Source of the DNA: Promethearchaeota archaeon
GTDB lineage: Archaea; Asgardarchaeota; Lokiarchaeia; Sigyniarchaeales; SOKP01
Reading direction: 5' to 3'
Assembly: GCA_048937405.1 (NCBI GenBank)
Contig: JBHLNF010000007.1
Location: 96,001 to 160,000, forward strand
DNA length: 64,000 bases
Shown here: positions 7,548 to 54,472 of the stretch, piece by piece
Numbering within the stretch: position 1 is the stretch's first letter
Layout: each line of letters starts with the position of its first letter
The notes under the pieces: model-generated
What the model was told of the DNA's origin: nothing
Seen by the model: only the letters and a program-made list of their open reading frames with translations
Databases searched by the model: none
Made by a program: the position numbers and the translations under genes

Positions 7548-8540
7548 TTGACAATTGAAAAGATACTTCAAAAGCTTAACGTTTTATTCAAACAGGCTAA
7601 TTATGAAACATTGGCATTAGGTAATTTTGCAGAAAAAAAAAATAAATTCTGCTTTGATCTTTTAGTCAAAAAGGAGGATTTGGTATTTAGTGTAAAAATT
7701 TTCCCCAATATTGATAATTTAAATCCCAATATCATTCAGGATATCAAATCTTTATCAGCAATCCTCAAATCAAAACCATTATTAATTGGAATTAGGAATA
7801 GATATCAAAATTTAGAAGACAATACAATATATATAAGAGAAAATTTACCTTTTATTACTATTAATACATTTGAAAATATCCTTAATAGCAATTATCCTCA
7901 TATTTTAGCAAGAAGGGGTGGTAAGGTCGTATTTTTAGAGGGATCATTAATGAAAACATTAAGAGAAGATCACTCTATAACAAGAAAAGAACTTTCGGAT
8001 AAATTAGGGATAACGAAAAGAACTGTATGCGCATATGAAAATGAATCTATGAGACCTTCAGAGAAAATTGCAAAAAAAATATCAGAAATATTAGAAAATG
8101 ATGAACTTTTTAAAAAAATTAACATATTTGGATGGCCAATTAAAGTAGATATCAAAAATTTTGAAGAGGAGGAATTGACTGAATTCGAGATTCATGTTCA
8201 AAATATTGTTAAAGATATTGGATTATCTTCATATTGGTATAGAAAAGGTTCTATCCCATTCAAATTATCTCTATATTCTACTTCTGACAAAAAAGAATCA
8301 GAAGGATTTTATCCTCTCTTCTCTGCTATCTCAGAAGAACAAAATAAAATTAATGAAATGAGTTTTAAATGCCTTAAAATGTTCACAGATTTATTCCACA
8401 AAACCTCATTATTTATTATAAACAATGGAATAAAAATACCTGAAATCTTTCATAAAGATAAAATTCCTATTGTCAAAATTAAAAATTTGGAAAAAGTAGA
8501 TGATGAAGAGGAATTCATTGAACTCATCCAAGATTCATGA
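7548..8540 (+). CDS. archaeal HTH-type transcriptional regulator (COG1395-like)
   Basis: CFDLLVKK, NIDNL, ARRGG, central HTH (TRKELSDKLGITKRTVCAYEN). Confidence 0.8.
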   Translation: MTIEKILQKLNVLFKQANYETLALGNFAEKKNKFCFDLLVKKEDLVFSVKIFPNIDNLNPNIIQDIKSLSAILKSKPLLIGIRNRYQNLEDNTIYIRENLPFITINTFENILNSNYPHILARRGGKVVFLEGSLMKTLREDHSITRKELSDKLGITKRTVCAYENESMRPSEKIAKKISEILENDELFKKINIFGWPIKVDIKNFEEEELTEFEIHVQNIVKDIGLSSYWYRKGSIPFKLSLYSTSDKKESEGFYPLFSAISEEQNKINEMSFKCLKMFTDLFHKTSLFIINNGIKIPEIFHKDKIPIVKIKNLEKVDDEEEFIELIQDS

Positions 8541-9245
8541 TGGTAGATCACAATTAATTTGTGGGATAGACGAGGCTGGCAGAATTTAATTCACTTCGAA
8601 TTTATGTTAAAAGGCTCTGTCTTAGGCCCAATGGTTATATGTGGTGTTTGTTTTACTAAATTAAATCTTGACACCCTTTCAGAAATTGGAGTCAAAGATT
8701 CAAAAAAGTTATCTCCTCAAAAAAGAAAAAATTTAGCTGAAATTATCAAAAAGAACTGTAATTCATATAAAATAATTGAGGTAACTGCTCAAGAGATTGA
8801 CGAGAGAGAACAAAAAAAAATTTCTCTGAACCGACTTGAGGAGCTTAAAATGGCTGAAATAGTTAATAACTTAAAACCTGATGTTATTTATATAGATGCT
8901 GCTGATGTCAATGAAAAAAGATTTGGAATATCAATAAAAAAATTATTAAATTATAATCCCAAAAACATCATTTCTAAACATAGAGCAGATGATATTTATC
9001 CTATCGTTTCTGCTGGTTCAATAATAGCTAAGGATAGAAGAGATTTCCTAATTGAAGAAATACATAAAAAATATGGAAATTTTGGTTCTGGTTACCCTTC
9101 GGATCCTAGAACGATCAAATTTCTAAGAGATTATATAAAAAAGTATAAAAAAGCTCCTGGAATTGCAAGAAAAACCTGGGATACTACAAAAAAAATAATA
9201 AATGAAGAAGTATCAAATAAGAAAATAACTGAGTTTTTTAGCTAG
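8500..9245 (+). CDS. rnhB: ribonuclease HII, spliced: join(8500..8582,8612..9245); alternative start TTG at 8518
   Basis: Exon 1 gives LICGIDEAGR and exon 2 gives GSVLGPMV...VKDSKKL...IDAAD...GSGYPSDP. The frames join only if 29 nt are removed. Confidence 0.92.
8583..8611 (+). other. 29-nt BHB-type mRNA intron in rnhB
   Basis: Helix UGGC(8577-80)/GUUA(8606-09), bulges AGA and AAA, inner AAUUC/GAAUU stem; canonical cuts give GGC-AG|A-GGC. Confidence 0.85.
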
Positions 9246-51101: not shown

Positions 51102-51665
51102 ATGTCAGAAAAGGCAGCAAATTCAGAAGAAGTTTTTTCCTTCAAGTGCCCAACTTGTAAAAATGGTATAATTGCCATTAAAAAAGCGATATATGACTTG
51201 CCAGATGGGGATAAAATGCTGATATTAAAATTTGAATGCAATTCCTGTAATTTCCATAAAAACGATATAATCCCCTTAACTACAAATATGGAATCGGGAA
51301 TTATGACCTTAAGAATTACCGAAGAGAATGACCTAAAATCTAAGATTTACCGATCACCTACAGGTAAATTAGAGATTCCTGAACTAGATATAATAGTAGA
51401 ACCGGGTCCCAGAGCTGATTTCTATTATACTAACGTACAAGGTATATTATTTCGATTTGAACAGGCAGTCTCAATATATAGAAATAGCCTTGAAAAGAAT
51501 GATCCAGCTAAAAGTGAAATGGATGAACTTTTATCTACTTTAAAACATGCTATAGAAGGTAAATTTAAGTTTACTTTAAAATTGACAGATTTCCAGGGAG
51601 GTAGTTATATCATTCCTGAAGATAAATCAAAATACACTTTCAAGAAAATTCAGAAAGAGGAATGA
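51102..51665 (+). CDS. ZPR1-type zinc finger protein
   Basis: CPTC...CNSC, IPEL.I.VEPG, TNVQGIL. Confidence 0.88.
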   Translation: MSEKAANSEEVFSFKCPTCKNGIIAIKKAIYDLPDGDKMLILKFECNSCNFHKNDIIPLTTNMESGIMTLRITEENDLKSKIYRSPTGKLEIPELDIIVEPGPRADFYYTNVQGILFRFEQAVSIYRNSLEKNDPAKSEMDELLSTLKHAIEGKFKFTLKLTDFQGGSYIIPEDKSKYTFKKIQKEE

Positions 51666-51800
51666 TTTAGGATTTTTTTCTAATTTTATAATCTTTTTAT
51701 GAAAATTAAAAAATCAGAAAGTTAAGAAAGCTAAGAGATTTAAGAAGGAAGTTAATCAATTTATTGTAACAAGAAATTCTTAGCTAGAAAGAGACAAATA

Positions 51801-52877
51801 ATGCAGCGAGAGATAAAACACTACAATAGGTGGTTAACTAATAATATTCAAGGTTATCTAAAAGGACTTAAGGGTGAAATCAGGGTCCTATTTGAACCAT
51901 ATATAGAATTCAAAAAAATGGGTACACTTTTTGGGCTTTACAAAAATTACATTCCAACTAATAGGATGCATAAATATTGTAGAAAAATTATAGCTAAAAA
52001 TACTTTAGATAAAATGCGTGCTAAATTCAAAAAATTTATTGAAATTTGGATAGAAAAATACCCACATTTGGTTCAGTCATTATTATTAGTACAATCTTAT
52101 ATTATGAAGTATATTGATGAATATGAGGTAATTCTTCAACCAAAACCTTCCCCAGATTATCAAATGTACAAATTCCATCCTGCTTTTAAAAGAAACTATT
52201 TTGAAATAATCGATACATATGAAAAAGCATATTGGCTTGGATTTCTATTTGCTGATGGATGGATTGCAATAGAACATAAGAAATCTGGAGATTATTATCG
52301 AATGGGGCTCCAATTATCATATAGCGATAAAAGAGTTGTTAAGGAACTTTGTAAATGTATAGGATTAAATCCCAGTTTTATTAAAATTCGTCTAGTAAAA
52401 AGTGATTTTAGTACGAAAATATATCCTATAAGTGAAATTAGATGGGGAGATCAGAAAATGGCTCAAGATCTATTAAAAATAGGGATGAGATATGAAAATA
52501 ATGAAGAAAAAGGAAGACGAGTTAAAACACCAAAACTTCCAAACTTAAAAAACCGAAATTTGATGCTAGCATTTTTATTAGGTTTCTATGATGGTGATGG
52601 CACCCTTGGATATGATAAAAAGACTGGTAAAATTCGTCCTAGAATTGCTTCCTCAGATATTGAATTTTTACGACAAATAAAAAATTTTTTTGGAATTAAA
52701 TACAAAATTTCTTCCACTGCGATGTTATATTTCAATATTAGAAAAAAGAAAATGATTAAAACAAGAGGGAGTAGACTTGATATTGAAAAAGAGATTTTTA
52801 AAAAAATGTTAAGTGTATATAAAAAAAGTCTTGAAAGGAAAAGAGTTTCATTAGATTATTTTAATGGTACTCATTAA
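51801..52877 (+). CDS. free-standing two-motif LAGLIDADG homing endonuclease-like protein
   Basis: YWLGFLFADG and AFLLGFYDGDG; no intein termini or host-gene flanks seen. Confidence 0.85.
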   Translation: MQREIKHYNRWLTNNIQGYLKGLKGEIRVLFEPYIEFKKMGTLFGLYKNYIPTNRMHKYCRKIIAKNTLDKMRAKFKKFIEIWIEKYPHLVQSLLLVQSYIMKYIDEYEVILQPKPSPDYQMYKFHPAFKRNYFEIIDTYEKAYWLGFLFADGWIAIEHKKSGDYYRMGLQLSYSDKRVVKELCKCIGLNPSFIKIRLVKSDFSTKIYPISEIRWGDQKMAQDLLKIGMRYENNEEKGRRVKTPKLPNLKNRNLMLAFLLGFYDGDGTLGYDKKTGKIRPRIASSDIEFLRQIKNFFGIKYKISSTAMLYFNIRKKKMIKTRGSRLDIEKEIFKKMLSVYKKSLERKRVSLDYFNGTH

Positions 52878-52975
52878 AATTGAATAAAATAGTTATTGAT
52901 ATAAGATATTTTTTTTATAATTTGCATTCTTTCTAATAGATATAATATCAAAAAACGTTTTAGAAGAAGGTTTAT

Positions 52976-54155
52976 ATGACAATAAAACGAGTAGGAATTT
53001 TAACAGGCGGCGGAGTCATGTCTAAGATTTAACTTAACTGCCGTTTACTGTCCTGGGTTAAATTCTGTTCTCTATGGAATCATGCTTAAAGGTTATGATG
53101 CAGGAATTGAATGTGTTGGGATCCTGAAAGGATGGAAAGGATTTGTGGAAAATCAAACAATTCCACTTGATATTGCAGAACATGATGATTTACATACTGT
53201 TGGTGGAACAATTTTATATACAAGTAGAACAAATCCCTTTAAAAATGTGAGTTCAAAAGAGCAAAAAGCAAAAAATTTAACCAAAAAATTTGAAGAATTA
53301 GGAATTGATGCTCTAATTGCTATCGGTGGAGATGATACTCTTGGAGTAGCTGATACTATATATAAGTTTGGAGATGCTAAGGTAGTTGGAGTGCCCAAAA
53401 CCATTGATAATGATTTAGCAGGGACTCATTATACATTTGGATTTTGGAGTGCTGTACAATTAGCTTCAAATACTCTCGATAATCTTACTACTACTGCTCA
53501 TTCACATCAGAGAGTATTTGTTGTAGAAATTATGGGAAGGGATGCTGGTTTTTTAACAATGTATAGCGGAATTTCTGCAGGAGCAGATATAATCTTAATT
53601 CCAGAAACTCCATTTGATTTAGAAAAAGATATAATAAATGTTTTGAAAAATCGAGTTGATGCAGGATATAAATATCACATTATTGCTACATCAGAAGGAG
53701 CATATCCTAAATTAGAATCGCTAAATAGAGATTTTAAAACTATTTCAAAAGAAACAATTGATAAACTACCGAAGGATACATATGGAAATCCTTTATTGGC
53801 TAAATTAGGTATGTCTAAAATAATTGTCGATGAACTTGATTTAAGAGATGATTTAAAAGAAAAATTTCAAGAAAATGGAGTAGAATTTGAGTGTAGAAGT
53901 GTAGTACTTGGTCATACTATGCGAGCAGGAACTCCAAATTCATTTGATAGAATATTAGGGTTAAGATTTGGATTAGCAGCAATGAAACTTGTTTTAAACG
54001 GTGAATTTGGGAATATGGTCTCTCTTCAAGGAAATAAAATTCAAACAGTTCCCTTATCAGAAGGAGTTAAAAAGAAATATATCACCACCGAGAATGATAA
54101 AATGGAATTAAGAGATCTTTTAGTAAAAATCCGCTATTTATCCAAACAAAAATAA
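52976..54155 (+). CDS. pfp: phosphofructokinase, PPi-type signature, spliced: join(52976..53015,53047..54155), 382 aa
   Basis: MTIKRVGILTGGGDCPGLN after removing 31 nt; GGDDT and PKTIDND (PPi-type residues); MGRDAG. Confidence 0.92.
53016..53046 (+). other. 31-nt BHB-type mRNA intron in pfk
   Basis: Helix GCGG(53010-13)/CCGU(53041-44), bulges AGU and UUA, inner CA/UG, GU/AC and UAAG/CUUA stems; cuts give GGA-G|AC-UGU. Confidence 0.9.
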
Positions 54156-54211
54156 AACATAGTTAATCTAAATAGAATGTTAAATTAAAATATAATCTCA
54201 TTCTCTAATTT

Positions 54212-54472
54212 ATGAATGAAATAAAAGGAATTCTTTTTGTAAGAATAGAAAGAAAGGGAACACGATCAGAAGGACCTGAATATTTCATTAAGCCAATAGA
54301 TGATTACAAAAAAAGATGGTCTGAAGTTATTGTAAGGAAAAGAACTCACTTATGGGAGAATGATCCTAAATTACATAAATTTCTAAATAAAAATGTGATG
54401 ATAAGTGGAGATATCATCGAAACGAAAAATACCATTACTATTGATTACTTAAAAGTGGAACTTTTGGTTTAA
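54212..54472 (+). CDS. small hypothetical protein (OB-fold-like)
   Basis: 86-aa ORF, GTRSEGPEY motif. Confidence 0.6.
   Translation: MNEIKGILFVRIERKGTRSEGPEYFIKPIDDYKKRWSEVIVRKRTHLWENDPKLHKFLNKNVMISGDIIETKNTITIDYLKVELLV

What the first reader, a model, noticed from the sequence alone, without database searches (positions are those of the whole stretch)
53010..53048. Intron splitting the GGGD motif codon of phosphofructokinase
The ORF track starts pfk at 53082, missing the universal N-terminus. MTIKRVGILTGGG starts at 52976 in another frame. Removing 53016-53046 joins G|AC into the Asp of GGGDCPG. The split falls mid-codon exactly where the BHB (GCGG/CCGU; AG^U, UU^A) predicts, and only this register restores Asp. 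Unspliced RNA stops at 53030-53032. A central-metabolism gene would then depend on splicing.
Basis: partly seen in the sequence, partly recalled or inferred. Interest (0 to 1): 0.9.

Follow-up and report, generated by a model that had tools for sequence, protein, structure and literature searches.

The report
tRNA-type mini-intron in Asgard phosphofructokinase
The only phosphofructokinase gene of this Loki-type Asgard archaeon is broken by a 31-base insert shaped like an archaeal tRNA intron, so its mRNA almost certainly has to be spliced (published for only one archaeal coding sequence, cbf5, in the papers I could search), and a neighbouring homing-endonuclease gene probably helped the insert spread.

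Summary
Confirmed. Removing 53016-53046 is the only 31-nt excision that restores GGGDCPG, and it gives a 382-aa PFK, the genome's only copy. Thirty species of the family carry a 30-32-nt insert at this exact G|AY junction; 89 pfk copies lack it. The 4-bp central helix pairs fully in 29 of 30, including an exon-intron compensatory change (C-G to U-A). Lengths 30/31/32 and internal stops rule out one frameshift or bypass rule. The genome encodes a two-subunit EndA with a CSL-like lysine loop, and RtcB. One correction: in this allele the motif is relaxed and not the predicted lowest-energy fold (helix probability about 0.1). No RNA data were available, so splicing is inferred. A free-standing LAGLIDADG gene lies 99 nt upstream. 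It or its remnant occurs beside 8 of 30 intron alleles and 0 of 89 intron-less ones. The intron is scattered on the gene tree with short conversion tracts, which suggests collaborative homing (about 60%). This scan has already noted the same kind of intron, and the nuclease pairing, in other Asgard genes and genomes, including pfk. I found no published report.

The parts
52976..53015 (+). pfk exon 1 (13 codons plus the G of the Asp codon); its N-terminus differs from the MGxQIKK start typical of intron-less members of the genus
53016..53046 (+). 31-nt BHB/BHL-type intron (type A); holds the in-frame TAA 53030-32 of the unspliced RNA; inner stem 53017-26 with 53033-40
53010..53013 (+). exon strand of the 4-bp central helix (GCGG), followed by the 5' bulge 53014-16, cut after the second base
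53041..53044 (+). intron strand of the central helix (CCGT), followed by the 3' bulge/loop 53045-47, cut after the second base
53047..54155 (+). pfk exon 2; PF00365; GGDD, PKTIDND and MGR motifs intact; only pfk copy in the genome
51801..52877 (+). free-standing two-motif LAGLIDADG endonuclease gene (358 aa; acidic residues D152 and D266 present; I-DmoI-like fold), inserted between zpr1 and pfk
52878..52975 (+). spacer and replacement 5' region of pfk; 76% identical to that of G053 (nuclease remnant plus intron) and 55% to the intron-less nearest relative G044
51102..51665 (+). zpr1-like gene, the left anchor; lies within 260 nt of pfk in 81 of 89 intron-less copies

Best explanation
53016-53046 is an ORF-less intron of the archaeal tRNA type inside the pfk mRNA. 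Shown: the coordinates, the conserved junction inside the Asp codon, the covarying helix, and the presence of EndA and RtcB genes. Inferred: the pre-mRNA adopts the relaxed bulge-helix-bulge/loop fold, the two-subunit EndA cuts after the second base of each 3-nt bulge, RtcB joins the exons, and the mRNA then encodes full-length 382-aa PFK. Unspliced RNA gives an 18-aa peptide. As this is the only pfk, the enzyme depends on splicing. More weakly inferred (about 0.6): the intron spreads at the DNA level together with the neighbouring free-standing LAGLIDADG nuclease. On that model the nuclease cuts intron-less pfk at or near the GGGDCPG codons, and repair copies the intron, exon 1, the first ~30 nt of exon 2 and often the nuclease gene. 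The intron protects the carrier's own gene, and the nuclease later decays.
For: Unique register. Same junction in 30 species of 5 genera, lengths 31 (23), 32 (6) and 30 with stops (1). Central helix fully paired in 29/30; a C-G to U-A double change between the exon wobble base and the intron in 3 species; 94% of cells paired against 39-58% in slid controls. Exon codons that build the motif are nearly fixed in carriers: third Gly GGA 30/30 vs 46/89, Asp GAC 28/30 vs 16/89, second Gly GGC 27/30 vs 14/89. Exon 2 has no lesion other than a second intron in some carriers, and 65 synonymous against 26 non-synonymous codon differences to G044. EndA catalytic subunit is closest to crenarchaeal (alpha-beta)2 enzymes and aligns through the loop with its Lys; a second, His-less paralogue and RtcB are present. 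A second 30-nt insert with the same geometry splits the GGDD codon in about 21 species. Mobility: nuclease or remnant beside 8/30 intron alleles and 0/89 intron-less copies; 18 state changes on the exon-2 tree; G240/G242 differ at 9 of the first 30 nt of exon 2, then 1, 0, 0, 0, 0, 0 per 30 nt.
Against: No spliced RNA was observed. In this allele the BHB register has a predicted probability of only 0.06-0.13 and lies 4 kcal/mol above the slipped fold. Related sequences are not independent, so the shuffle controls overstate, and the shared codons could partly be hitch-hiking. For the mobility part: 18 of 30 carriers have zpr1 next to pfk with no trace of the nuclease; the independent-pairs test for the nuclease is 4-5 against 0 and not significant (p 0.06-0.125); the nuclease's target site is unknown.
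Confidence: 0.9

Rival explanations
1. Recoding instead of splicing: a +1 ribosomal frameshift or a gene-60-type translational bypass across the hairpin.
For: In this allele the exon-2 frame is open through the insert, so a +1 shift would give a full-length protein with about 10 extra residues. A hairpin with a stop codon next to a homing nuclease recalls T4 gene 60 and mobA (PMC2988022; the bypass mechanism is from my own knowledge).
Against: Insert lengths of 30, 31 and 32 need three different shifts. Seven of 30 carriers have a stop in the exon-2 frame inside the insert. No carrier has a GGA landing codon, and the junction is mid-codon. A shift here gives Tyr instead of the conserved Asp.
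Confidence: 0.03
2. pfk is a pseudogene or makes an N-truncated protein from ATG 53082; the insert is a mobile-element scar.
For: The insert sits beside a mobile nuclease gene, and public gene calls list the 357-aa truncated form.
Against: It is the only copy. No decay in exon 2 of any full-length carrier, and synonymous changes dominate. The structure covaries. Truncation removes the first strand and the GGGD loop that all solved PFKs align over.
Confidence: 0.04
3. The intron is real, but it is old, vertically inherited and repeatedly lost. The nuclease is a later passenger that lands only where the site is already protected, or is linked by chance.
For: 18 of 30 carriers show no nuclease trace. 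Three diverged intron types exist and type C is clade-restricted. Changes on the tree (18) are fewer than in any of 300 shuffles (mean 23.6, minimum 19), so some inheritance is vertical. An unrooted count cannot tell gain from loss.
Against: The same 31-mer occurs in two genera (G057; G242, G262, G266) whose exon 2 sequences lie far apart on the tree. No intron-less copy keeps all five carrier-type codons; one (G254) keeps four and looks recombinant. The window's two nearest relatives have no intron and a different intron type, respectively.
Confidence: 0.35
4. Assembly or sequencing artefact.
For: The genome is a metagenome assembly and no reads could be laid on it.
Against: 48 distinct insert-plus-flank sequences at the same base from independent assemblies.
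Confidence: 0.005

Closest known systems
cbf5 pre-mRNA intron of Crenarchaeota (Watanabe 2002; Yoshinari 2006; Yokobori 2009, PMC2738675)
   Same: Short ORF-less intron in a coding sequence; borders between the first and second base of a conserved Asp codon; cuts after the second base of each bulge; often a relaxed motif; hetero-oligomeric EndA.
   Different: Different phylum (Asgard, Promethearchaeia/Lokiarchaeia by record titles) and a central-metabolism gene. Polymorphic between sister species, with a second intron site in the same gene and a linked free-standing nuclease. Splicing is shown by cDNA for cbf5 and not here.
BHB intron in the 5' UTR of Haloferax HVO_1309 (Schwarz 2020, PMC7714728)
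   Same: mRNA substrate of the splicing endonuclease; the paper names cbf5 as the only other mRNA case.
   Different: Lies in the untranslated leader, so it does not break a reading frame.
Asgard tRNA introns (bioRxiv 10.64898/2026.10.13.758758)
   Same: Same motif and two-subunit EndA; repeated gains; route of arrival stated to be open.
   Different: tRNA genes only; term searches of its text found no mRNA intron.
Collaborative homing in phages (T3/T7-like phages, cyanophage; PMC2988022, PMC10448857)
   Same: Free-standing nuclease next to an ORF-less intron in a conserved motif of the neighbouring gene; co-conversion of flanking exon sequence.
   Different: There the intron is a self-splicing group I intron in a phage. 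Here it is a 31-nt host-spliced intron on an archaeal chromosome with a LAGLIDADG enzyme, and cleavage is untested.
I-DmoI-type nucleases of archaeal rRNA BHB introns
   Same: Two-motif LAGLIDADG fold; best Foldseek match E 1.6e-5; association with a BHB intron.
   Different: I-DmoI is encoded inside its intron (PDB title); this gene is outside, about 140 nt upstream of the intron, and has an extra ~110-aa helical N-terminal part.

Membership tests
Archaeal EndA-spliced (BHB/BHL) intron | 4-bp central helix between two 3-nt bulges, borders after the second bulge base | tested here: met
   Geometry matches the only register that restores Asp; 29/30 species fully paired; one compensatory pair
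Archaeal EndA-spliced (BHB/BHL) intron | Intron-side flanking helix | tested here: met
   First two inner pairs C-G/A-U in type A and U-A/U-A in type B; inner hairpin mean z -2.0 over 43 introns
Archaeal EndA-spliced (BHB/BHL) intron | Exon-side flanking helix (canonical hBHBh') | tested here: inconclusive
   One G-C pair, a 2x2 loop, then two pairs in most carriers; weaker in this allele, which reads as BHL-like and competes with a slipped fold
Archaeal EndA-spliced (BHB/BHL) intron | Host encodes EndA of a type able to cut relaxed motifs, and an RNA ligase | tested here: met
   Two EndA paralogues, one with the Tyr/His/Lys motifs and a loop aligning to the crenarchaeal Lys loop; RtcB. Specificity is inferred from likeness (PMC12397907)
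Archaeal EndA-spliced (BHB/BHL) intron | Exon-joined RNA exists; EndA cuts the precursor | not testable with these tools
   No RNA holder listed
Group I / group II self-splicing intron | Ribozyme core of hundreds of nucleotides | tested here: not met
   31 nt; no Rfam match in 51600-54300
Translational bypass / programmed frameshift | Matched take-off and landing codons, or one constant frame shift | tested here: not met
   No GGA landing codon in 30 carriers; lengths 30, 31 and 32
Collaborative homing unit | Free-standing nuclease adjacent to the intron-bearing gene and absent beside intron-less alleles | tested here: met
   8/30 versus 0/89; independent pairs 4-5 to 0, not significant
Collaborative homing unit | Co-conversion of flanking exon sequence | tested here: met
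   Sharp tract in G242/G240, G266/G240 and G244/G254; not resolved in more distant pairs
Collaborative homing unit | Nuclease cuts the intron-less site and not the intron-containing site | not testable with these tools
   Needs a cleavage assay
LAGLIDADG homing endonuclease | Two LAGLIDADG helices ending in acidic residues; I-DmoI/I-AniI-like fold | tested here: met
   PF14528 E 8e-9; D152 and D266 present in all four aligned homologues; fold match with a moderate model, pLDDT 65
PPi-dependent PFK (PfkA family) | GGDD and PKTIDND signature | tested here: met
   Both motifs present; their link to PPi use is from my own knowledge and activity was not tested

The most novel reading that the evidence does not exclude
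Lokiarchaeia splice tRNA-type mini-introns out of mRNAs for core enzymes, and these introns are mobile: a free-standing LAGLIDADG nuclease, a replacement first exon and an ORF-less 30-32-nt intron act as one homing cassette between species and genera. That would be a concrete route for intron gain in protein genes of the archaea closest to eukaryotes.
Probability: 0.55. Interest if true: 0.88.

Novelty: new variant of a known kind. Interest (0 to 1): 0.74.

Why it matters
The papers I could search report endonuclease-type splicing inside an archaeal coding sequence only for cbf5. A splicing-dependent, single-copy glycolytic enzyme in Asgard archaea means mRNA splicing is part of ordinary gene expression in the lineage nearest to eukaryotes, although by a chemistry unrelated to the spliceosome. 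It also means public annotations truncate such genes. The locus offers a natural series (no intron, two or three intron types, nuclease intact, decayed or absent, in close relatives) that makes an open question, how BHB introns arrive, testable with one cleavage assay and one splicing assay.

Tried and rejected
RNA evidence: no RNA holder listed, so read laying could not be used; this is no evidence either way. A search of metagenome contigs for the exon-joined carrier signature found nothing; uninformative, as the collection is not known to hold transcripts. The protein search returned no full-length protein near 100% identity. My de novo BHB-plus-ORF scanner missed its positive control, the pfk intron itself, so I give no genome-wide count and no enrichment figure. 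The single-sequence structure model of the nuclease was useless (pLDDT 35); only the 4-sequence model was used. Codon counts from the pattern-selected metagenome loci are biased by the search pattern, so only the 30 species from the codon-free pattern were counted. Fisher tests on nuclease by intron (p 7e-6) treat kin as independent and are not relied on. In-frame 6-10-aa insertions near residue 82-90 in other genera are ordinary charged protein insertions, not introns. ARAGORN's tRNA calls in this genome look unreliable (21 genes, odd anticodons) and show only that intron-bearing tRNAs are common. Six literature searches aimed at prior reports found none for Asgard mRNA introns; most subscription journals are not covered. 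One search failed on wrong coordinates and was replaced.

Full report
Observation. The window sequence reads MTIKRVGILTGGG from ATG 52976; the frame then runs V-M-S-K-I and stops at TAA 53030-32. The ORF list starts pfk at 53082, and the exon-2 frame has no other common start codon upstream. I tried all 28-, 31- and 34-nt excisions. Only 53016-53046 gives GGGDCPG with three glycines, and the joined frame is 382 aa. It is the only pfk in the 4.47-Mb, 100%-complete genome. Record titles of close relatives place the genome among Promethearchaeia/Lokiarchaeia. The GGDD and PKTIDND motifs suggest a PPi-type enzyme (own knowledge, untested).

Distribution. A codon-free pattern search of 399 Asgard genomes found the insert in 30 species, all in the window's family and in 5 of its 13 genera. 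The other matches, mostly outside the family, read as unrelated sequence; those fetched did not align to pfk. pfk was found in 125 of 134 family genomes. Of 119 copies I could score, 30 carry the insert and 89 do not, and the empty site is exactly G|AY. With metagenome contigs there are 48 distinct insert-plus-flank sequences. Lengths among the 30 species are 31 (23), 32 (6) and 30 (1, with in-frame stops). They fall into three sequence types that share an AAG...CTT hairpin closure in most cases. About 21 species carry a second, 30-nt insert in the first Asp codon of GGDD, with the same bulge spacing, a good outer helix and a poorer central helix; 12 of the 20 scored also have the first. The window's gene lacks this second insert.

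Structure. In the window, GCGG 53010-13 pairs with CCGU 53041-44 between the bulges AG^U and UU^A, with an 8-pair inner stem. The central helix is fully paired in 29 of 30 species. Where the exon wobble base changes (GTGG), the intron changes to CCAC or CCAT. On a 20-species alignment 94% of cells pair, against 39-58% when the partners are slid, and 5 of 12 pairs show double changes (kinship inflates the shuffle control, and the structure was drawn from these sequences). Exon codons that build the motif are nearly fixed in carriers and free in non-carriers: third Gly GGA 30/30 vs 46/89, second Gly GGC 27/30 vs 14/89, Asp GAC 28/30 vs 16/89, Thr ACG 24/30 vs 20/89. Selection on the RNA fold and co-inheritance would both produce this. 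The main caveat is specific to this allele. Its tandem Gly codons and its ACA/TGT codons allow a fold slipped by 3 nt that is predicted to dominate (0.85-0.92 against 0.06-0.13; a 4 kcal/mol gap). With the central helix formed, the 3' site reads as an internal loop, so the motif is BHL-like. The slipped register has probability 0.16 or less in the other 29 species, and in the four type-B alleles the constrained BHB equals the minimum-energy fold. The BHB register is therefore the conserved one. Whether this allele is spliced less efficiently is open.

Machinery. The genome has two EndA paralogues and RtcB. One paralogue has the Tyr, His and Lys motifs and is closest to crenarchaeal (alpha-beta)2 catalytic subunits, aligning through the loop that carries their Lys. 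The other lacks the His. Such loops are reported to allow cutting of relaxed motifs (PMC12397907). That this enzyme does so is inference.

Rivals to splicing. A +1 frameshift is formally open in this allele but gives Tyr for Asp and about 10 extra residues in the loop. It cannot serve the 32- and 30-nt inserts, and 7 of 30 carriers have a stop in that frame. No carrier has a matching landing codon for bypass. A pseudogene is unlikely: single copy, intact motifs in all full-length carriers, and 65 synonymous against 26 non-synonymous codon differences from G044. No RNA could be examined, so splicing remains an inference at about 0.9.

The neighbouring nuclease. A 358-aa two-motif LAGLIDADG gene (51801-52877) lies between zpr1 and pfk. 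In 81 of 89 intron-less copies zpr1 directly precedes pfk, and none of the 89 has the nuclease in the stretch examined. Among 30 carriers, 7 have it or a fragment by HMM and G053 has a remnant (E 3e-6); 12 have a disrupted spacer, against 1 of 82 non-carriers. On an exon-2 tree of 112 copies the intron changes state 18 times (shuffles: mean 23.6, minimum 19), so it is scattered with some vertical signal. The window's nearest relatives are G044 (no intron, no nuclease) and G053 (type-B intron, nuclease remnant), while its own type-A intron is most like those of more distant species (81%). Its 5' region follows G053 (76%) rather than G044 (55%). G242 and G240 are nearly identical in exon 2 except for 9 differences in the first 30 nt, and they differ in exon 1 and upstream: a conversion tract centred on the insertion site. 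Independent pairs go 4-5 to 0 for the nuclease (p 0.06-0.125) and about 6 to 0 for spacer disruption (median p 0.03). Homologous nucleases elsewhere also sit beside split genes: a korC-like gene in G052 and cobO in G044 and G004, where the window's genome has an intact cobO with no nuclease. This fits collaborative homing as described for phages. But 18 carriers show no nuclease trace, direction cannot be read from an unrooted count, and the cut site is unknown, so I give it about 0.6.

Comparison with what is known. The closest case is the cbf5 intron of Crenarchaeota, which also splits an Asp codon after its first base and often has a relaxed motif (PMC2738675). A 2020 study names it as the only other mRNA case besides a Haloferax 5' UTR intron (PMC7714728). 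A 2026 preprint on Asgard tRNA introns leaves their route of arrival open, and term searches of its text found no mRNA intron. I found no paper on Asgard mRNA introns, within the limits of the library. Earlier notes of this scan describe the same kind of intron in many Lokiarchaeia genes, two in pfk of other genomes, and the nuclease pairing, including at this locus. These are unchecked notes and are not used as support; I had both readings before consulting them.

Verdict. A real, conserved tRNA-type intron in the coding sequence of an Asgard pfk: a new variant of a known kind. Splicing is very likely but not shown, and nuclease-assisted spread is plausible and directly testable. Interest 0.74.

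Noticed in passing
L013, L016, L018, L022 and others (pfk codon 109): Second 30-nt insert splitting the first Asp codon of GGDD in about 21 species; perfect outer helix and inner stem but a central helix with a mismatch. Absent from the window's gene.
   Followed up: partly
window 8500-8620: rnhB-like gene broken just after GIDEAGR by an insert of about 30 nt with an in-frame stop; borders not worked out.
   Followed up: partly
L135:3228-3256 (G052): korC/porG-like gene split by a 29-nt BHB-shaped insert in GFGGQG, about 100 nt after a 1036-aa LAGLIDADG gene that is 50% identical to the window's nuclease.
   Followed up: partly
L083:2930-2990 (G044) and L088 (G004): cobO/btuR-like gene with a 30-nt insert in the GRGKGKT motif beside a LAGLIDADG gene; the orthologue in the window's genome (C15, near 19500) is intact with no nuclease, the reverse of the pfk case.
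   Followed up: partly
L081 minus strand (G005): Glycoside-hydrolase-like gene with a 30-nt hairpin insert after ETHWDRE, a few hundred bases from a LAGLIDADG gene.
   Followed up: no
L240 (G254): Intron-less pfk whose exon 1 has carrier-type codons and matches G244, while the first 30 nt of exon 2 match intron-less G235: an apparent recombinant.
   Followed up: partly
L134 (G061), L135 (G052), L137 (G020): Relatives of the window's nuclease have long charged N-terminal extensions (open frames of 518 to about 1300 aa); the window's copy is a short form. Six further hits of this nuclease family lie in the genome.
   Followed up: no
L181 (G002), L195 (G062), L134 (G061), L216 (G242): Several pfk alleles have no ATG at the expected start and appear to begin at ATA, ATT, TTG or ACG.
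   Followed up: no
L004 (G006): The pfk 5' end is a run of N exactly over the intron site, so its state is unknown.
   Followed up: no
PDB 44xa, 44xf, 9cir: A solved 6-phosphofructokinase that matches intron-less orthologue P0002 far better than any other entry (E 4e-146); probably an Asgard enzyme and usable as a structural reference.
   Followed up: no
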